Assembly (NCBI GenBank): GCA_965112155.1
Contig: OZ218108.1
DNA length: 64,000 nucleotides
From: Podarcis liolepis
Lineage: Eukaryota
Reading direction: 5' to 3' (one strand)
The notes under the pieces were generated by a model. That model had not been told where the DNA came from. It ran no database searches and saw only the letters and a program-made list of their open reading frames with translations. Positions 7,501 to 45,973 of the stretch are shown here, in pieces (position 1 is the first letter of the stretch; every line of letters begins with the position of its first letter). The position numbers and the translations under genes are program-made.

Positions 7501-8089
7501 CCTTCTTTAATACAAACTATTTCTATGTAATAGGTTGTTACAAAATTCCCAGCTGGTACTGATATTCTGCTTAACAGTTTTTTTAAAAAATAATAATACT
7601 TTTATTCTAAGTGAAGCCCTAGTCAGTAAAGAAACACTGAGGTACTTTCCAATAATTGTATTTACCACTCTTTTGTTACATAAAAACTCCATAAGGAAAA
7701 TGTCTCTGCAGGGTTGCTGCAGTTTGCCAAAACAAAGAAGAATTTTCTTGCTTCTTAAAAAAGAGAAAAAAAACTGTGTTTTCCTCAGTTACATATATCC
7801 CAAAATAGGACTCATGCTCTAGTCCCCAAAGGCTTATGGTACAATAAATATATTAGTGCATCAGACCAAACATAGAGAAAATAGGCTAGTAGCACCTTAA
7901 AGCCTAATACTTTTCCTGGAACTGGACACAATTTGTTAAATGTTTTATATTATAATTTGCCCTCTTTGTGTGAGGGCAGGGAGGGTTTGCAATATTTCCT
8001 GTTGCCACATAAGATGTATTGCTTTGGGGGCATATCTGCATACTCTGGCTTGGATTTAAAAACAACAACCGTGCACTGTGTTCACTGTA

Positions 8090-8331
8090 CAGTGGTACCT
8101 CGGGTTAAGTACTTAATTCGTTCTGGAGGTCCGTTCTTAACCTGAAACTGTTCTTAACCTGAAGCACTACTTTAGCTAATGGGGCCTCCTGCTGCCGCCA
8201 TGCCGCCGGAGCACGATTTCTGTTCTCATCCTGAAGCAAAGTTCTTAACCTGAAGCACGATTTCTGGGTTAGCAGAGTCTGTAACCTGAAGTGTATGTAA
8301 CCTGAAGCGTATGTAACCCGAGGTACCACTG
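8090..8331. mobile_element. Tc1/mariner (Tigger-like) MITE
   Basis: TA TSD (8088-8089, 8332-8333). TIR CAGTGGTACCTCGGGTTA / TAACCCGAGGTACCACTG. Internal TAACCTGAA repeats. Confidence 0.9.
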
Positions 8332-8469
8332 TACTCACAAAAGCAATTCGAGTAGCTTAAAGAGAGTACACAGAGCAGCCTAGACTGTGCACAGCAATAA
8401 AACCACTCACTCATTTGCAAAGCTAAGCAGGGTCCAGTATTGTTTCAAATTGGAAGAGGGATCGTGTGT

Positions 8470-8548: not shown

Positions 8549-9836
8549 TCTGGCTCCTGATGTTCCAGATAAGGGAGTCTCACTGTTTCCCCAACCACTA
8601 CCACAAGGCTACTCAACAATCATCTTGTCCCTGGAGGAGAGGAGCTAATTTTTAAAAAGTCCCCCCAGTAGCTGTTTTATTATATAGTTCAAATTTATGT
8701 TTGTTGTTTTAAATTGTTTTGCAAGGTTTGCCTGAAAGGCCGTTATACAAATATCCTAAATAAATAAACAAAAACCCCACATGAATTATATGGACTGAAT
8801 ATAATTTAAAATATAAAATTATATATACATGAGAGCATTTCAAGACTGGTCTCTAATTATTAGGTATTTTATAGATTTCCCACCTCTAACTATAGTATAT
8901 ATGCTAACGTTTTGAAAAGTTCTGTTCCTGACAGAACATCATGAAACCCTGTCACAATCTTGTTGCACTGAATCTTACGTAAGGGTGTAAATGAAACACG
9001 CTACTGCTGTATTTGGTGGCGCCTACGTGTGTTTCGGTGGGTCCTGCTTGAGTCATTCTGAATGTTCTGATGCAATGTCTTCAGTCATTGCAGCTTCCAG
9101 GCCTATTACCATAGTGTCTGTCAGTGAACAGAACTGTTCAAGCTAATGGCACATTCTTCCATTGGTGCCACTGATTGTGAAAGATTGTTCGCCCCTATGT
9201 AGTGTCTTCCATTCTTGCAATTCTCTTCTGTTTGTTCAAGCAGAAAAGACTAGCCCAGTAATCTGTAACAGAAATGGTTTTAAAGGTGCAGTGGAAAATA
9301 AATGTGTGTATATTACTCTCTCTCTCACTCCCTGTTTAAACATATTCATCATCATAAAATCTGGCATGGGCAGAGAAGTAGATAAGAGCCTTCAGAAAAC
9401 AAGTTGTGGATATGTATATTCAGCTTCTCCCTAATTATAGATAGCAGCTCTCCTGGAAAAAAAAATGGGCATGTTAAGTGCCATTTATCTTCCAGTTGTA
9501 ACTTTTGCTTTGACCCATACGAATGAAGCATTTTGTCTTCCTTTATATCTCTTGTATAAATTCACATTATAGGGCATCAATACAACATCTTCTGTTTCTG
9601 CAAATGCAGTAGAAGGACAGGATAAAAAACAACTTACACAAAAAAAAAATGCGGAGGGGGCTGCAGGGAGAAGGGCAGCCACCAAAATGGTATTCTGCCC
9701 CTATTCTGTTGACAAATTTATTTCTTTAGTAGACAGAAAACATTGGATGCAACATTATAAAAATAAACTAATCATTACACATGTTCGAAACTATAAAGGT
9801 GTTGCATGAAACTTTATGCTTCCTTACCACCCAAGA

Positions 9837-10199
9837 ATTGATGCTTTTGAATTATGGTGCTGGAGGAGACTCTTGAGAGTCCCATGGACTGCAAGAAGAT
9901 CAAACCTATCCATTCTGAAGGAAATCAGCCCTGAGTGCTCACTGGAAGGACAGATCGTGAAGCTGAGGCTCCAATACTTTGGCCACCTCATGAGAAGAGA
10001 AGACTCCCTGGAAAAGACCCTGATGTTGGGAAAGATGGAGGGCACAAGGAGAAGGGGACGACGGAGGGCAAGATGGTTGGATAGTGTTCTCGAAGCTACC
10101 AGCATGAGTTTGACCAAACTGCGGGAGACAGTGGAAGACAGGAGTGCCTGGCGTGCTCTGGTCCATGGGGTCACGAAGAGTCGGACATGACTAAACGAC

Positions 10200-10245
<46 letters not shown>
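9837..10245 (+). mobile_element. 5'-truncated RTE-BovB LINE
   Basis: RIDAFELWCWRRLLRVPWTARRSN...YFGHLMRREDSLEKTLMLGK is the BovB RT C-terminus. (CAA)n tail 10204-10245. 11-bp TSD ACCACCCAAGA at 9826-9836 and 10246-10256. Confidence 0.95.
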
Positions 10246-11766
10246 ACCACCCAAGATATAATTACGTTCTTTTAGGAAAAAAGCAAGGCCAATGAGATCT
10301 TCCAGAGGAGCAGTTCTATTCTCCTTGAATCAAAAAGTTCTGCAGTATTTTGTTATGGAGCAGCACTTCTATGCAGATCATCTGCGGCTATGGACAGCCA
10401 TCAGTGTTAACACTTTTGAAGGTCTGGCTGTTTCTGCTGAATCTTTAACAGTTGCAGTATGGTTTTGTTTTGTTTTTGTTGACACCAGATATCAATAATT
10501 GAGGATCTCTTATATTGTGTGGGCTTCCACATGAGCAGATAGAGTGGGTTGGATTCAAGATCTGGAAAGCAGAGTTCTGCTTATGGACAGCATGCTTCTG
10601 ACACCTGCTAATGGAAAGGGGAAGCTGATTCCCCCCCCCCCAATTTCCTCCTTTTCCCTTCAGAAAACAGTGAACAGTGTGGAAGGGGATGCAGAATTGC
10701 CTTCTAACTTTAGTAGAAGTCTTCACTAGAACAGTGTTTCCCAACCGGTGTTCCGCGGCACACTAGTGTGCCGTGAGACACCGGCTGGTGTGCCGTGGGA
10801 GGGAGGCGGGCGAGTCGGGCGCCTAGGAGAGAACAAAACCAAGTGAGCAGCGCGCGAGAGGGAAGCGACCCGAAAAAGAAGCGCGTTCGGAGTCCGGAGG
10901 CACTTTTGGGGCTGTGTACGAAGGGAGGGGGGGGCACGGACGGCGGAAGGGGGCGGGGCGCGGTTGCAGAAACCCGCCAATGCTTCCACCTCATTGGGAA
11001 AGGGAAGGGGTTGGGCCACCTAAAACTCTCCGCCGGGGCCACATCCTGCCTCCCAGCCCCCTTTCCTCCACCCACGGAGGGAGGGATGTTTTTAACACAC
11101 ACCCCCCCGCTCACAACCCTTTGGTAGCGTTTCTCCAATCTGAGGCGAGCGCCCGCCGACGCCCCCTTCCCCTGCTCAGTCGCGCAAAAACCGAAGTCTC
11201 CTCCCTACCCCTTATTCCCTCAAACCCCGTTTCCATAAGGGGGGGGGGGAATAACCCCTTCCGTCGCGCGCAAAGCCCAGCTCCCTCCGCCCTTCGCGGT
11301 CTCCTCAGCACTTCAGCCAGCCGTTTACACTCTCGGAGCCACTGGGCAAAACTCGCTCTCAGAAGCGCGCGCGCGCGGAGAGAAAGAGAGAGGGAAACAA
11401 AGTTAACTTGTGGGGAGAGAGAAAGAGCGAGCGGGAGCTAACTTGTGTCCAAAGGCAGATACAAAGTAGCCCCCCCCCCCGCCCCGAAGGCGACCTCTCT
11501 TGCTCTGCTCCTCTGGGGTGGGGAAACCAACTCCACCACGCGGAGCAGCCCCGAGGCGGGGAATTTCGCCCCTTCGTAATGTATGCATGTAAATGAGGCG
11601 GGCGCAAGGGGTGGGCGCGGAGAGGAACTCGCGCCTCTGAGGCCGCCGCCTCCTTCTCCTCCTCCTCCGCCCCCCCCTCAAACCCAGGCGGCGGCGGCGG
11701 CAGGAGGCAGCAGCGGCAATAACAGAAGCAGCTGCGCTGACAACAACACGTGTTCGCTCGGGCACC

Positions 11767-11894
11767 ATGGAATTCGAGGAGCTGGGGATTCGGGAGGAGT
11801 GCGGCGTGTTCGGGTGCATCGCCTCCGGCCTGTGGCCCACGGAGCTGGACGTGCCCCATGTGATCACGCTGGGGCTAGTGGGGCTGCAGCACAG
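11767..11894 (+). pseudogene. PPAT: Transposon-captured copy of PPAT (amidophosphoribosyltransferase) coding exon 1
   Basis: GGCACCATGG Kozak context. Reads [42 protein letters not shown](R), i.e. the 11-aa propeptide plus N-terminal nucleophile Cys of vertebrate PPAT. 128 nt ending AG|GTAGGG at a phase-2 donor. Lies inside the hAT TIRs, and no PPAT exon 2 (GQESAG...) is seen downstream. Confidence 0.9.
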
Positions 11895-11985
11895 GTAGGG
11901 GACACGGCGGTGGGGGGGGAGACGGTCTGGGGAAGCGGGGGGAGGGTGGGTTGCTTGCGAGACAGCGGAGGAGGAGGAGGCCGGC

Positions 11986-12177
11986 ATGTCCGGGCAGCAG
12001 CAGCAACAGCAGCAGCAGCAACTCCCGGCGACGGCTCCTCCTCTGCCCGCTATCGCCGCCGCCTCAGCTGCCGCCGTCCCTCAGTCCCTCGCTCTGCTGC
12101 CTCCTCCCACCCCGGCAAGGGGAAGGGAAAAAACTTTCACTTTTGTGCGTCCCTCCCGGCGTGACGCTGCGCGCTGA
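11986..12177 (+). other. Unidentified poly-Q/Ala/Pro first-exon-like fragment in the hAT cargo
   Basis: (GGA)n leader, GCCGGCATG start, then MSGQQQQQQQQQLPATAPPLPAIAAASAAAVPQSLALLPPPTP. Resembles a low-complexity N-terminus from a different gene. Source not recognised. Confidence 0.4.
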
Positions 12178-12463
12178 CGTCACGGGGCGGGGCTTTAATG
12201 GTGGTGTGCCGTGAGATTTTTTTCCGGTAAACAGGTGTGCCGTTGCCCAAAAACGTTTGGGAAACACTGCACTAGAATGAAGGCCTTTGGATTCATGAAA
12301 GAACTCTTGCTGTGAGTGAAAGAGCATCTTTGGATCCAGCCCACTGTTTATAGAGCAGGGTTCCTGTATTGGGGCTTTGCCACCAAAGCAACAAAAAAAT
12401 GGCAGCTTTATGGAGAAAGGCAAGAGAAAGTAGAGCAACAGTAGAATTTGCAAATGCAATATA

Positions 12464-12724
12464 CCGTATTTTTTGCTCTATAAGACTCACTTTTTCCCTC
12501 CTAAAAAGTAAGGGGAAATGTGTGTGCGTCTTATGGAGCGAATGCAGGCTGCGCAGCTATCCCAGAAGCCAGAACAGCAAGAGGGATTGATGCTTTCACT
12601 GCGCAGCGATCCCTCTTGCTGTTCTGGCTTCTGAGATTCAGAATATTTTTTTTTTCTTGTTTTCCTCCTCCAAAAACTAGGTGCGTCTTGTGGTCTGGTA
12701 CGTCTTATAGAGCGAAAAATACGG
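12464..12724. mobile_element. Tc2/pogo-like MITE
   Basis: TA TSD. TIR CCGTATTTTTTGCTCTATAAGAC vs GTCTTATAGAGCGAAAAATACGG. Internal 25-bp perfect inverted repeat. Confidence 0.88.
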
Positions 12725-13293
12725 TAATTGTTCTGAAACATTTACCTATCCTAGTGAACTGACACTTGTTACTTTTTACCAAAGGTGGTAGACTTGAGAC
12801 CTGTTCAAATGCAAGCCCGTGCATCCAGAGCAAATAATCCTGTAATGAAGTATGACAGTGGTCTGTTTCAACATTAGGCAACATTCTATGTTTTCTTAAT
12901 GATACTGTGGATGGTTCTGACATGCTGAATGAGGTCTGCTATTAAAACAAAAGATGCTTCTGCCTTGTACTGCCTTTATGGGTGGCCGCATTGAGGAGCT
13001 GCAAGTAGCACATTATTCTAGCTAATCCTTGATTTCAAATCATCTGTTGTATAGAAAACTGGCCTACTCTTGCACTATGAGCAGGTTAATGAAAGCTAAG
13101 TAGCTATAATAATGCTCCCATTTGCAAAAAGAGCCTCTTTAATTGTAACAAAATTCCAACACAGAAAATACTCCTATATAGGATTTACTGTACCTATTTA
13201 AACATATATCTAACATGTGATCTTACAGTTAATTTACTGTAAATGGCTATCGGGTGTTGGAAGCTGGCATAGCCCACTCTTTTATAGGATTAC

Positions 13294-24287: not shown

Positions 24288-26413
24288 TTTTTTTTTTTAT
24301 AAATTTTTTATTGGTTTTACAAAAATTTTTAAGACAATACAAACATATAAAAAGATATACAAACACGTATAATTTCATAACCTTTTTTTTCATAAACCGT
24401 GTTTCTCCGACTTCCCCATACCTCCCCTTTCTGCATCCCAATGTCCAAAAGTTTTTAGCAACTCTGAATATATCTGTCAATCCTCTGTCCTCTTAGTCTT
24501 TCCTTCAACCTAGTCTTATATCACTGTATCCCTTTCTTACTCAAACCTCGACATTCTAACATTCATCAAGTTTATAATAGTCCTTAAGGTAGATTTTGAA
24601 TTTCTTCCATTCTTCTTCCGCCGTCTCCTTTCCCTGATCGCGGATTCTGCCAGTCATCTCAGCTAATGTCATATAGTCCATCACTTTCATCTGCCATTCT
24701 TCCAGGGTGGGTAAATCTTGTGTCTTCCAATACTTTGCGATGAGTATTCTTGCTGCTGTTGTAGCATACATAAAGAAAGTTCTGTCCTTCTTTGACACCA
24801 ATTGGCCGACAATGCCCAAGAGAAAGGCCTCTGGTTTTTTAGGAAAAGTACATTTAAGTATCTTTTTCATTTCATTGTATATCATTTCCCAGAAAGCCTT
24901 AATCTTCGGGCATGTCCACCAAAGGTGATAGAAAGTACCTTCAGTTTCTTTACATTTCCAACACTTATTGTCAGGCAAATGGTAGATTTTTGCTAGCTTG
25001 ACTGGGGTCATGTACCACCTGTAAATCATTTTCATAATGTTTTCCTTTAAGGCATTACATGCCGTGAATTTAATACCGGTGTTCCACAACCATTCCCAGT
25101 CAGCAAACATAATGTTATGACCAATGTCCTGTGCCCACTTAATCATAGCCGATTTGACTGTTTCATCTTGTGTATTCCATTTCAGCAGCAAATTATACAT
25201 TCTTGACAAATTCTTAGAATTGGGTTCTAACAGTTCAGTCTCTAATTTTGATTTTTCCACCTGAAAGCCAATTTTCCTGTCCTGTTTAAAAATCTCCATT
25301 ATTTGGTAATATTGAAGCCAATTTTGTACTTTAGGTTTCATTTTCTCATGACTTTGTAATTTCAATTTATCTCCCTCCTGTTCCAAGATTTCCCAATACT
25401 TCGGCCATCCGACCTCCATATTGAGTTTCTTCAATGCCTTAGCCTCCACGGGTGACACCCATCTAGGGGTTTTGTTTTCCAACAGATCTTTATATCTTAT
25501 CCAGACATTAAACAATGCTTTTCTAACAATATGGTTTTTAAAGGCCCTATGCACCTTGATTTTATCATACCATAGATATGCATGCCAACCAAATGCATTA
25601 TTGAAACCTTCCAAATCCAAAATGTCTGTGTTCTCGAGGAGCATCCACTCTTTCAGCCAGCAAAACGCTGCTGCTTCATAGTACAATTTTAAGTCCGGCA
25701 GGGCAAATCCCCCTCTTTCTTTAGCATCTGTCAGTATTTTAAATTTAATTCTGGGCTTTTTGCCCTGCCAGACAAATTTCGAAATATCTTTCTGCCACCT
25801 CTTGAAACAATCCATCTTCTCAAGAATCTGCAAGGCTTGAAACAAAAATAACATTCTAGGCAATACATTCATCTTAATCACTGCAATTCGGCCTAACATT
25901 GACAATTTCAAATTTGACCATATTTCTAGATCTTTTTTAATTTCTGACCAGCATTTTTCATAATTGTCCTTATACAAGTTCAAATTTTTTGATGTCAAAT
26001 AAACCCCTAGGTATTTCACCTTCTTAACCAGTGTCAAACCTGTCTCTTCTTGAAATTTCTCCTTCTCCGCGGCTGTTAAATTTTTTTCTAAGACTTTAGT
26101 TTTTTGTTTGTTCAGTTTAAATCCAGCTACCTGGCCAAATTGTTGAATTATCTCCAACACCCTTTTCGTACTAGTGTCAGGCTCTTGTAGAGTCAATACT
26201 AAGTCATCTGCAAATGCCCTTAACTTATAATGTTTATCTCCGACCTGTATACCTTTAACCTGCTGGTCATTTCTAATCATATTCAGCAACACCTCCAGAA
26301 CTGAAATAAAAAGCAATGGGGAAATTGGGCATCCCTGTCATGTTCCTTTTTCTATCCTGAGTTCCTCAGTTACCACATTATTTACAATTAGTTTGGCTTT
26401 TTGTTCAGAGTAT
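24288..26413 (-). mobile_element. 5'-truncated L1-clade LINE (ORF2 RT + C-terminal zinc knuckle, 3'UTR, poly-A)
   Basis: 586-aa ORF 24556-26316 with RT motif AFADDL, KYLG, GRIAVIKMNVLP, GGFALPD and CWKC..FYHLWWTC. Poly-A tail seen as T-run ~24287-24298. Candidate TSD ATTTGAAT at 24280-24287 and 26414-26421. Confidence 0.93.
24556..26316 (-). CDS. L1 ORF2 fragment (reverse transcriptase C-half), truncated copy
   Basis: ORF-track protein has canonical L1 RT motifs. The frame continues upstream through GT*QGCPISPLLF, with one TGA at 26338-26340. Confidence 0.85.
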   Translation of the reverse strand: MLFISVLEVLLNMIRNDQQVKGIQVGDKHYKLRAFADDLVLTLQEPDTSTKRVLEIIQQFGQVAGFKLNKQKTKVLEKNLTAAEKEKFQEETGLTLVKKVKYLGVYLTSKNLNLYKDNYEKCWSEIKKDLEIWSNLKLSMLGRIAVIKMNVLPRMLFLFQALQILEKMDCFKRWQKDISKFVWQGKKPRIKFKILTDAKERGGFALPDLKLYYEAAAFCWLKEWMLLENTDILDLEGFNNAFGWHAYLWYDKIKVHRAFKNHIVRKALFNVWIRYKDLLENKTPRWVSPVEAKALKKLNMEVGWPKYWEILEQEGDKLKLQSHEKMKPKVQNWLQYYQIMEIFKQDRKIGFQVEKSKLETELLEPNSKNLSRMYNLLLKWNTQDETVKSAMIKWAQDIGHNIMFADWEWLWNTGIKFTACNALKENIMKMIYRWYMTPVKLAKIYHLPDNKCWKCKETEGTFYHLWWTCPKIKAFWEMIYNEMKKILKCTFPKKPEAFLLGIVGQLVSKKDRTFFMYATTAARILIAKYWKTQDLPTLEEWQMKVMDYMTLAEMTGRIRDQGKETAEEEWKKFKIYLKDYYKLDEC

Positions 26414-34900: not shown

Positions 34901-35253
34901 TTTTATGTTTAATTTTTATTGAGTATAGATTGTACATACATATATTCTTGAGTTATTTACAACATAAATCCTTAAATTAATACATTATACAGTACATCTA
35001 CCCATACAAATCTTTTTCCACCCGTGACTTCCCACCACCTCACTGCAGCTTACATTTCAGTCCTTATGATTCAGTATGTATGTACCTCTCTTAGCTCTTT
35101 TATGTGCAGGTCCTTCTACAATAAAGCCTGAAGCTTAGGGAACATTTTTGTTTGAGTGGCTGCAAGTGGGTGTAATTAAACTGATATTGTGGGGACAGGC
35201 TTGCAGAATCCGTTTTGTGATTTGGGAGAGGCATCATAGAGCCTATTTAAATA

Positions 35254-36031
35254 CAGTGGAACCCCACAAGACGAACGCCTCGCGAGACGAAAAACTCGCA
35301 AAACGAAAGGTTTTTTGGTTTTCGAGTTGCCTCGCAAGACGAATTTCCCTATGGGCTTGCTTCGCAAAACGAAGCTTGCCCCGGGGACAGCGGGTCTTCT
35401 CTTTTGAAGCAAGGGGCGGCGGGGAGAAGCGATCTTCTCCCCGCAGCCCCAGGTCCGGGGACAGCGGGAAGCGCTTCCCGCTGCCCCTGGACCTCTTTTG
35501 AAGCAAGGGGCTGCGGGGAGATCGCTTCTCCCGGTGCTCCAAAGTGGGGCGGGGGGGCGGGAACACCTTCCCCCACCGCCCCGCTTCGGAACGGTGCTCC
35601 GAAGCGGGGCGGGGGGTGGGAACACCTTCTGAAGGCTGGCGGGGGGCAAAAGTCTTTGTCCCCCCTGCCTGCCTTCCCAGGGGCTTTTAAATCGCCCCGG
35701 ACAGCGGAGAAGTCCTCCGCTGTCCCGGGGCGATTTTAAAATGCCGCCCGCCAGCATTTTAAGATTGCCCGGACAGCGGAGAAGTCCTCCGCTGTCCCGG
35801 GGTTTTTTAAAATGCTGGGGGTGGGAAGAAAAGCCCTTATCCCCCCCCCCAGCCTTCAGAAGAGGTCCGGGGACAGACTGTCCCCGGACCTGGTCTGAAG
35901 GCGGTTTCCCTAGGAACGCATTAATTGATTTTCAATGCATTCCTATGGGAAACCGTGCATCGCAAGACGAAAAACCCGCAAGACGAAGAGACTTGCGGAA
36001 CGAATTAATTTCGTCTTGCGAGGCACCACTG
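35254..36031. mobile_element. Tigger-like non-autonomous element with GC-rich internal repeats
   Basis: TA TSD. TIR CAGTGGAACCCCACAAGACGAA vs TTCGTCTTGCGAGGCACCACTG. Subterminal CGCAAGACGAA repeats and internal CGG(GG)ACAGCGG modules in both orientations. Confidence 0.88.
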
Positions 36032-44419: not shown

Positions 44420-45973
44420 TGCTAGGTCCTGTGGCTGCAAAACAAGTCCAGATAATCACCCCTCCATCACATAGCTGTCAACTTACAGGTTTGAAAATAA
44501 GGGACCAGCAGCCTTGAAAATAAGGGACCAGCAGCCCAAATAAGGGACCTGCAGCCTCACCTGTTCCAGGCATTCCAGTCTTCCTGTCCTCCTGCAGTCT
44601 GGTCAAACTCATGATGGTAGCTTCGAGAACACTGTCCAACCAACTTTGTAACCAGAGGTTCAACTGAATAGAATCTGAATCACTTGCACCACAAGGCCTA
44701 TGCAGCCTCAACTTAAGATAGCTCCCCGGCCTGGCTTTGCATTGCAAAGTTTGCAGCAGCACGTGCAACAAAATGGCATCCAGCATTCAAAAAACCCCTC
44801 AGCTTGCATTAACTAGCCACACACAAGGCATGCAAGCTCCACCCCCCAGTCGTTCTTAGACTTCTTATTGGGTGAGCAACATAGCCAAGCAACACAGTTG
44901 GAGCCTCCCTCCTCCCTGGCTGGCAGGGAGGGAGGGAGGGGAGCTGCTTCCTTTGAAATTTAAGGGACATCATTTAAGGGACATTTAAGGGACATCCATC
45001 AATAAGGGACAGCAGCGGGACATGGCGCTGGAATAAGGGACTGTCCCTTCAAATAAGGGACACTTGACAGCTATGCTCCATCACCATGCTTGGCAGTATG
45101 AGGTGCTTGTCTCTTATGCTGTGTTTGGTTTTTGCTAAACCTGGTGCTGTGCATTATGGCCAAACATCTCCACTTTGGTCTCATCTGTCCAGAGGACATT
45201 GTTCCAGAAGTCTTGTGGTTTGTTCAGATGCAACTTTGCAAACCAAAGCCATGCTGCCATGTTCTTTTTAGAGAGATGAGACTTTCTCCTGGAAACCATT
45301 CCAAACAAACCATACTTGTTCAGCCTTTTTCTAATTGTACTGTCATGAACTTTAACATTTAACACACTGAGGCCTGTAGAGCCTGAGATGTAACTCTTGG
45401 GGTTTTTGCAATTTCTCTGAGCATTGCACGGACTGACCTTCCTTGTTGTGAATTTGCTGGGACGTCCACTTTTTCCACTTTTGAATAATCTTTCTCACTG
45501 TAGAATGATGGACTTTACATTCGTTGGAGATAGCCTTAGAACCCTTCCCAGTTTCATGGGCAGCAGCACTTGCTTCTCTAAGAGCCTTGTGCCATCTTTC
45601 CTCCTTGGCATTGTGTTAAAACACACCTGAATGCTCCAGACCAGCAAACTGCTAAAACTTTGTCTTTTATAGAGGTGGGCACACTTGCTGATGATCAATT
45701 AAGCAAGGGCATGTGATTAGCAGCCCCTGTCTGCTACTTAGTCTCTTAATTCCTATGGCAGCAGAAAGGGTGTACTTAGTTTTTCACACATTATTTCTCC
45801 ATCTTTATTTCTGTTAAATAAATTATATCACGGTGTAATATGTCATGTGTCAATCATCTGTGGTTGTATTTACCTAATTTTAAGACCTGATAAGGAACAA
45901 ATGATTGCTATTATGTCCTGATATGTAAAACCACAGAATTCAAAGAAAGTTCACTTTCTTTTTCTCATGACTA
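44420..45973 (-). mobile_element. Degraded Tc1 transposon (transposase N-half), interrupted by the hAT element
   Basis: ORF 45135-45365 reads VHDSTIRKRLNKYGLFG..SRRK..LSKKN...FAK.HL.KPQDFWNNVLWTDETKVEMFG (Tc3-type HTH and first catalytic D). MPRRKD start near 45615. Terminal-repeat-like sequence to ~45973. Left boundary approximate. Confidence 0.8.
44470..45075. mobile_element. Non-autonomous hAT element with CATAGCTGTCAA ends, inserted in a Tc1 remnant
   Basis: TIR CATAGCTGTCAA / TTGACAGCTATG. 8-bp TSD CTCCATCA (44462-44469, 45076-45083). Multiple subterminal AATAAGGGAC repeats at both ends. Confidence 0.9.

What the first reader, a model, noticed from the sequence alone, without database searches (positions are those of the whole stretch)
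10800..12200. The cargo looks like a mosaic of several different promoters/first exons
Seen: no PAICS first exon is recognisable on the minus strand upstream of the PPAT piece. About 90 bp into the 'intron' a new (GGA)n leader and ATG begin a poly-Q reading frame, and the cargo ends in a CRE + GC-box module next to the right arm. Several CCAAT/GC-box blocks occur at 10950-11160. Inference: serial capture of GC-rich 5' gene ends from different loci, the same bias reported for Pack-MULEs, perhaps through gap repair templated from open chromatin.
Basis: inference. Interest (0 to 1): 0.7.

Follow-up and report, generated by a model that had tools for sequence, protein, structure and literature searches.

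The report
Lizard transposon stacking captured gene starts
A young jumping DNA element in a lizard carries stitched-together pieces from the starts of host genes at three different chromosomal sites (PPAT/PAICS, RANBP9 and an unnamed CpG island), which it likely picked up one after another during DNA repair, a plant-like gene-shuffling habit rarely described for this kind of element in vertebrates.

Summary
The stretch is the cargo of a 1,538-bp non-autonomous hAT (Buster-type) transposon at 10732-12269, with at least 20 copies, each in its own 8-bp target duplication. 10822-11957, all CCAAT/GC boxes included, is one collinear copy of the PPAT/PAICS bidirectional promoter; it holds the PAICS 5' UTR and stops 18 bp before the PAICS ATG. 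The poly-Q frame is the true start of RANBP9 (another contig). The CRE block comes from a third, TIR-free CpG island; the neighbouring GC box is absent from that donor and arose inside the element. Intermediates survive in the genome, and arm substitutions order the captures: CRE island, RANBP9, PPAT last. All 11 cargo segments measured in the wider family are CpG-island-like. Serial capture is supported; the open-chromatin cause is untested, and PPAT junction microhomology (2 and 1 bp) is at chance level. Copies lose CpGs 8-20 times faster than other C/G, so they are probably methylated and mostly silent. Closest known: multicopy Pack-TIRs, Pack-MULEs, bat Helitrons. Unchecked scan notes report similar hAT captures in other lizard genomes.

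The parts
10724..10731 (.). left 8-bp target-site duplication
   Evidence: identical 8-mer at 12270-12277
10732..10797 (+). native left arm of the hAT element, 13-bp TIR at its start
   Evidence: matches the left end of transposase-bearing relatives L135/L137 with 10 differences in 64 bp
10798..10821 (+). 24-bp remnant of an early GC-rich cargo ('E'); donor not located; last 2 bp shared with the PPAT/PAICS donor
   Evidence: absent from native arms, longer form in the 718-bp subfamily L143
10822..11957 (+). captured PPAT/PAICS bidirectional promoter region, collinear with G000:C9:54972320-54971165 (minus strand)
   Evidence: 1087/1198 identities, 96 gap columns, one HSP; PAICS exons downstream of the donor
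10822..10890 (-). PAICS 5' UTR (exon 1, cut 18 bp before the ATG); inner end approximate
   Evidence: stranded RNA reads with donor alleles
10950..11142 (.). GC box and three CCAAT boxes of the PPAT/PAICS promoter
   Evidence: all present in the single donor
11767..11894 (+). PPAT first coding exon (128 bp), followed by 63 bp of intron 1
   Evidence: amidophosphoribosyltransferase match E=6e-14; frame intact in 19 of 19 copies examined
11961..12070 (+). RANBP9 last 25 bp of 5' UTR and start of exon 1 (ATG 11986), shortened by internal deletions
   Evidence: homologues are RANBP9; true gene at G000:C8:60208971 minus, with downstream exons; 78/86 identity
11986..12177 (+). 63-aa chimeric poly-Q frame: first 18 residues RANBP9-like, tail read through unrelated cargo
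12071..12086 (+). 16-bp linker shared with a sister subfamily's cargo; donor not located
12087..12188 (+). two pieces of a third donor, a TIR-free CpG island at about G000:C4:28669627-28669923 (minus), including the CRE (12175-12182); gene not identified
   Evidence: 25/27 and 72/81 identity; the 718-bp subfamily holds 368 bp of it at 98%; GC 0.60, CpG o/e 0.89
12184..12195 (+). GC box made inside the element by a 5-bp duplication
   Evidence: single unit in the donor and in older subfamilies, two in younger ones, three in L041
12196..12269 (+). native right arm with 13-bp TIR
   Evidence: matches the 3' end of transposase-bearing L137
12270..12277 (.). right 8-bp target-site duplication

Best explanation
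This is one copy of a young non-autonomous Buster-type hAT transposon whose interior is a patchwork of host CpG-island DNA from three mapped loci, likely acquired in sequence by DNA repair that switched template into host genes and then spread by a transposase presumed to act in trans. Shown: the element, its 20 or more insertions, the three donors, the intermediates, and that the PPAT/PAICS piece replaced about 97 bp of a 508/520-bp parent rather than inserting into it. Inferred: the order (CRE island, then RANBP9, then deletions, then PPAT/PAICS); that each step was template-switching repair of a break in a family copy (gap repair after excision, or fork stalling); that family members also recombined with each other through shared cargo; and that the copies are methylated passengers without host function. 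Why the donors are CpG islands is open; I favour accessibility of germ-line promoter DNA as a repair template (about 45%) over the rivals below.
For: 20 copies at 98-99%, 20 of 20 with their own perfect 8-bp TSD. 127 of 129 family insertions with a perfect TSD have TA at positions 4-5, the Buster signature (PMC3517528, passages); a relative with the same arms carries a transposase C-terminus 91-97% identical to ZBED5-like/hAT transposases. Donors on C9, C8 and C4 lack family TIRs in the 10, 5 and 30 kb fetched. Cargo contains promoter and intron sequence, so the template was DNA. Intermediates: 718 bp (island only), about 1,600 and 1,265 bp (whole RANBP9 exon 1), 735, 520, 508 bp, 1,538 bp. 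Arm differences from the native ends rise in that order (left arm 1, 5, 5, 7, 10, 10, 10) and copy-to-consensus divergence falls (about 1.0-1.4%, 0.5-0.6%, 0.19%). 11 of 11 cargo segments have CpG o/e 0.67-1.08, 10 of 11 GC 0.57 or more, against 2 of 49 insertion flanks. CpG transitions 30/4948 versus 11/13706 at other C/G in the PPAT subfamily. RNA reads over the PAICS UTR carry gene alleles in 30 of 30 and 45 of 46.
Against: Microhomology at the PPAT junctions is 2 and 1 bp, expected by chance with p=0.20 and 0.49, so it gives no support for homology-guided switching. Donors of the 24-bp and 16-bp remnants and of most sister cargos were not located. Only 2 of 30 loci sampled by the native left arm carried island-type host cargo, so capture marks one sub-lineage, not the whole family, and my cargo sample was reached mostly through GC-rich probes. 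The 1,600-bp subfamily holds an internal right TIR followed by a TA-centred 8-mer, which fits capture of DNA beside an inserted copy as well as long-range switching. The gene at the third donor is unidentified, so 'promoter' there rests on composition and motifs. The RNA runs are of a different organism code from the best DNA holder and may hold fewer of these copies. No intact autonomous element was looked for.
Confidence: 0.8

Rival explanations
1. Amplification bias: capture is indiscriminate, but elements carrying promoter DNA stay accessible or bind factors in the germ line and so transpose more, filling the genome with island cargo.
For: Island-bearing subfamilies are abundant (1,705 candidates for the 508-bp type; 309 and 386 pattern matches). 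Bat Helitrons with promoters reach higher copy numbers (PMC4224331, passages); multicopy but not single-copy Pack-TIRs are GC-rich (PMC8277862 discussion).
Against: Copies decay at CpG like methylated DNA; low-copy cargos (ASF1-like, 2 copies seen; L109, 1 seen) are island-like too; AT-rich deletion derivatives also multiplied.
Confidence: 0.25
2. Homology bias: once the first GC-rich cargo was aboard, breaks inside it found short matches mostly in other GC-rich, triplet-repeat-rich 5' ends, making the bias self-reinforcing with no role for chromatin.
For: The 735-bp step joins RANBP9 to a sister cargo across an 18-bp shared GCC-rich stretch (read from the sequences printed); capture is concentrated in the sub-lineage holding the CRE island.
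Against: PPAT junctions show only 2 and 1 bp; the ASF1-like and L126 captures join at or near AT-rich native arm sequence.
Confidence: 0.2
3. Neighbour capture: elements insert beside promoters and take flanking DNA by paired excision or end bypass (Pack-CACTA model), later fusing with other copies.
For: Internal right TIR plus target-like 8-mer in 4 of 4 examined members of the 1,600-bp group; model described in PMC12187468 (passages).
Against: No family TIR at the three donors; only 2 of 49 insertion flanks are island-like; the PPAT piece replaced internal parent sequence with both arms and older cargo kept in register.
Confidence: 0.1
4. The whole interval is one PPAT/PAICS fragment, or an assembly chimera.
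For: 81% of the interval is that one locus.
Against: 11961-12188 maps to two other loci; 20 independent insertions share the junctions; contigs of two other runs hold the element-type left part (overlaps of 29 and 24 letters, under the tool's 31-letter bar for bridging).
Confidence: 0.01

Closest known systems
Multicopy Pack-TIRs of animals, e.g. Pack-hAT-N8_XT carrying the CAPSL 5' UTR (Tan et al. 2021, PMC8277862; read: abstract, sections 7, 8, 9, 12, 14, searched passages of main text and supplements)
   Same: hAT arms around host 5' sequence, distinct TSDs per copy, distant donor, GC-rich cargo, template switching proposed.
   Different: That survey found 4 multicopy cases in 100 genomes, the examples shown have 3-5 copies and one parent, and the anole had 0 Pack-TIRs. 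Here one element holds three mapped donors, and the lineage has 11 or more cargos and over a thousand copies with intermediates preserved. The survey's filters (unique top hit, 80-120% length ratio) would likely drop such elements.
Pack-MULEs and other Pack-TYPE elements of plants (PMC12187468, PMC8903248; passages read)
   Same: Non-autonomous TIR elements with fragments of several genes (about 23% of rice Pack-MULEs hold two or more). The GC-rich 5' bias of Pack-MULEs is recalled (Jiang et al. 2011 not held) and is alluded to in PMC8277862's discussion.
   Different: Different superfamily (13-bp TIR, 8-bp TA-centred TSD, hAT transposase) and a vertebrate host with CpG-island promoters.
Promoter-capturing Helitrons of vespertilionid bats (Thomas et al. 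2014, PMC4224331; passages read)
   Same: Vertebrate DNA transposon, sequential capture, excess of promoters/5' UTRs/first exons, thousands of copies.
   Different: Rolling-circle chemistry, no TIRs or 8-bp TSD; here a cut-and-paste element with replacement-type internal captures.
Buster family of hAT transposons
   Same: TA-centred 8-bp TSD (PMC3517528 passages), transposase fragment matching ZBED5-like/SCAND3-like labelled proteins (their Buster origin is recalled).
   Different: This copy encodes no transposase; interior replaced by host DNA.

Membership tests
Multicopy Pack-TIR (Pack-hAT) | Both ends are termini of the same TIR element | tested here: met
Multicopy Pack-TIR (Pack-hAT) | Internal host sequence of 100-5000 bp with an identifiable parental locus at 90% identity or more | tested here: met
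   PPAT/PAICS 91% with gaps, 15 mismatches in 1102 aligned bases; RANBP9 and C4 island
Multicopy Pack-TIR (Pack-hAT) | Several dispersed copies with distinct TSDs | tested here: met
   20 of 20
Multicopy Pack-TIR (Pack-hAT) | Parental locus not flanked by the element (not a segmental duplication) | tested here: met
   no family TIR in 10, 5 and 30 kb around the three donors; other TE families near the donors were not annotated
Multicopy Pack-TIR (Pack-hAT) | Not a retrocopy (introns or promoter retained) | tested here: met
   promoter and intron-1 starts present
Multicopy Pack-TIR (Pack-hAT) | Survey filter of Tan 2021: one unique parental hit spanning 80-120% of the interior | tested here: not met
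   three parents; a search filter rather than a biological feature
hAT, Buster family | 8-bp TSD with central TA and short TIRs | tested here: met
   127 of 129
hAT, Buster family | Cognate hAT transposase with the same ends | tested here: met
   107-aa C-terminal fragment in L137; Pfam Dimer_Tnp_hAT only E=0.012, under the cut-off (none at 0.001); 88 homologues, best 97%
hAT, Buster family | Intact autonomous partner in this genome | not tested
Pack-MULE | MULE termini (long TIRs, 9-11-bp TSD) | tested here: not met
   13-bp TIR, 8-bp TSD; works like a Pack-MULE, is not one
Pack-MULE | Bias to GC-rich 5' gene sequence | tested here: inconclusive
   11 of 11 cargos island-like, but the sample was reached largely through GC-rich probes and only 3 donors were mapped
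Capture from open chromatin | Donors accessible and near the element in germ cells | not testable with these tools
   needs germ-line ATAC/Hi-C

The most novel reading that the evidence does not exclude
A recently arrived, probably horizontally transferred Buster hAT has become a promoter-sampling machine in lacertid lizards: a sub-lineage repeatedly overwrites its interior with CpG-island starts of housekeeping genes, keeps the versions that move best, and has scattered thousands of promoter mosaics, some of which act as new promoters, splice donors or small-RNA sources against PPAT, PAICS and RANBP9. It would be the first cut-and-paste counterpart of rice Pack-MULEs in an amniote, with a readable series of intermediates that lets capture bias be separated from amplification bias.
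Probability: 0.3. Interest if true: 0.8.

Novelty: new variant of a known kind. Interest (0 to 1): 0.6.

Why it matters
The published animal survey concluded that TIR-transposon gene capture in animals is rare, mostly single-copy and transposition-independent. This lineage shows plant-scale, serial, multi-donor capture by an active cut-and-paste element in an amniote, of a form that the survey's filters would likely miss. Because donors and intermediates are young and still in the genome, it makes a standing question testable: is the 5'/GC-rich bias of Pack elements set at capture or at amplification? It also matters for annotation: at least 20 false PPAT first exons and a dozen or more RANBP9 first exons can mislead read mapping and gene models.

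Tried and rejected
Pattern searches for the CRE donor or other cargos that found nothing useful: 1 match, an element copy; 0 matches. One search covered a wrong reading frame and found nothing; repeated in frame. The idea that the CRE module is native transposon sequence was rejected (native 3' end lacks it; donor found). The idea that the poly-Q frame is a chance or antisense reading was rejected. The gene at the C4 island was not identified: 97 frames of 75 aa or more over 30 kb gave only Na/H-exchanger exons 6-10 kb away and TE hits; one search found no PDB match. No listed holder run is on record as RNA. In one search junction J3 is invalid (the chimera itself served as template) and J5's value of 21 holds only with one mismatch ignored (18 exact). 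One search's 508-bp sample was the top-ranked hits and is biased. 74 of 109 window frames of 80 aa or more were scanned for a host gene and gave only LINE and Tc1 remnants, so the insertion's gene context is unknown. A final tally of GC-box states over all loci was not obtained; that point rests on the alignments. Literature searches listed no description of this lizard family; most subscription papers and Repbase/Dfam were not searchable, and supplements of papers other than PMC8277862 were not seen.

Full report
What is there. The GC-rich stretch lies inside a 1,538-bp element at 10732-12269 with 13-bp terminal inverted repeats and a perfect 8-bp target duplication. A search of the window's own genome scored 40 of 2,145 candidates: 20 copies of the element (18 full length, 2 with internal deletions), one TIR-free locus matching query bases 85-1225, and 19 shorter elements matching only bases 1-89 and 1225-1538. 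All 20 copies have their own perfect TSD; 19 aligned copies differ from their consensus by 0.19% on average. The genome is lizard-like: the best named protein matches are from Podarcis.

Donor 1, PPAT/PAICS. Of 37 tiles of 80 bp, 30 consecutive ones align collinearly to G000:C9:54.971-54.972 Mb (1087/1198, 96 gap columns). The captured exon matches amidophosphoribosyltransferase, and SAICAR-synthetase exons follow the donor on the other strand. RNA reads confirm the minus-strand UTR at 10822 to about 10890, and carry the gene's alleles in 30 of 30 and 45 of 46 reads. All CCAAT and GC boxes at 10950-11142 belong to this one promoter. The piece replaced about 97 bp of the 508/520-bp parent; junction microhomology is 2 and 1 bp, with chance probabilities 0.20 and 0.49. 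The cargo consensus differs from this assembly's donor allele by about 1.4% plus 17 gap events, more than copies differ from each other, which suggests capture from another haplotype.

Donor 2, RANBP9. Longer relatives (735 bp) gave a longer frame whose homologues are Ran-binding protein 9. The true gene is at C8:60208971 with four downstream exon matches; at least 12 other loci hold the whole first coding exon, and 13 of 19 such loci fetched lie between TIRs with a perfect TSD. The window keeps 11961-12070 of it. The 63-aa frame is therefore a chimera: 18 RANBP9-like residues, then read-through.

Donor 3, a CRE-bearing CpG island. Elements with a transposase remnant show that the native right arm begins at 12196 and lacks the CRE module. 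A pattern excluding arm-linked copies gave 13 matches, 12 attached to element ends and one, C4:28.67 Mb, without TIRs. A 718-bp subfamily carries 368 bp of it at 98%; the window keeps two pieces, 12087-12113 and 12114-12188. The island has GC 0.60 and CpG o/e 0.89; its gene was not identified. The donor and the older subfamilies have one copy of the 5-bp unit, younger ones two, one copy three, so the GC box arose in the element. Two short remnants (10798-10821, 12071-12086) come from further, unmapped cargos.

Order and breadth. Arm differences from the native ends increase from the 718-bp island-only form through the RANBP9 forms to the 520/508/1,538-bp forms, while copy divergence falls from about 1% to 0.19%. 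Sister subfamilies carry other cargos: an ASF1-like first exon with promoter, a 1.2-kb first-exon-like cargo, and others. All 11 segments measured have CpG o/e of 0.67 or more against 2 of 49 insertion flanks. Against over-reading: only 2 of 30 loci sampled by the native left arm carried such cargo, and two further cargos seen (L076, L102) were not measured.

Identity of the vehicle. 127 of 129 insertions with a perfect TSD have TA at positions 4-5, the Buster consensus (PMC3517528). The transposase fragment is 91-97% identical to proteins from a newt, snakes, a frog and spiders; its Pfam hAT hit is weak.

How it most likely works. Shown: DNA-level, replacement-type capture from unlinked loci, followed by transposition. 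Inferred: template-switching repair of breaks in family copies, with exchange between subfamilies (an 18-bp shared stretch at the 735-bp junction; an internal right end in the 1,600-bp group). Untested: the role of open chromatin. The copies are probably methylated passengers: CpG transitions run 7.6-fold above other C/G transitions in this subfamily and 10- to 23-fold in two older ones, and the RNA seen comes from the real genes, though from runs of a possibly different species.

Comparison. It meets the biological criteria of a multicopy Pack-TIR (Tan et al. 2021, PMC8277862), where only 4 multicopy cases were found and none in the anole; it is not a Pack-MULE but behaves like one (PMC12187468), and it parallels bat Helitrons that capture promoters sequentially (PMC4224331). 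Seven paper searches listed no account of this family. Earlier scan notes, not checked here, report hAT elements with CENPW and HCN1 starts in other lizard genomes. Verdict: real feature, interpretation right in kind and wrong in partition; a new variant of a known kind, interest 0.6.

Noticed in passing
L137:1912-2232 (G000:C2:16.29 Mb): The family's transposase C-terminus is 97% identical to a Pleurodeles newt protein and 91-92% to snake, frog and spider proteins, a pattern suggesting recent horizontal transfer of this Buster element.
   Followed up: no
L140/L141 (G000:C2:41.44 Mb, C5:48.91 Mb): 1,784-bp family member carrying an ASF1-like promoter, first coding exon and about 1 kb of intron; two copies seen; donor not mapped.
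   Followed up: partly
L088-L100: At least 12 dispersed copies of the entire RANBP9 first coding exon (residues 1-153), whose splice donor differs from the gene's by a one-base loss.
   Followed up: partly
L090, L093, L094, L106, element positions 95-125: Internal right TIR followed by a TA-centred 8-mer and 100 bp of unmapped DNA, as if repair copied through another insertion's end into its flank.
   Followed up: no
L085: 1,036-bp composite joining a sister subfamily's 5' part, an inverted piece and a RANBP9-type element.
   Followed up: no
L102: A different GC-rich element with what looks like another gene's first exon is nested in a RANBP9-type copy.
   Followed up: no
L126, L136, L142, L145, L149, L153: Subfamily of 0.85-1.4 kb with an unmapped promoter/first-exon-like cargo.
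   Followed up: partly
Read laying, joint 12269 to 10732: 10 and 11 RNA reads in two runs, and one DNA contig, join the right end to the left end across an 8-mer: tandem copies sharing a target site, or possibly circles.
   Followed up: no
window 35160-36030: The window's other CpG-rich stretch is a second TIR-bounded element with GC-rich internal repeats; possibly another cargo-bearing family.
   Followed up: no
window 8087-8334, 9830-10245, 12462-12726, 24559-26337, 45100-45615: Ordinary repeats: two MITEs, a LINE 3' end with an AAC tail, an RT-bearing LINE fragment and a Tc1 remnant.
   Followed up: no
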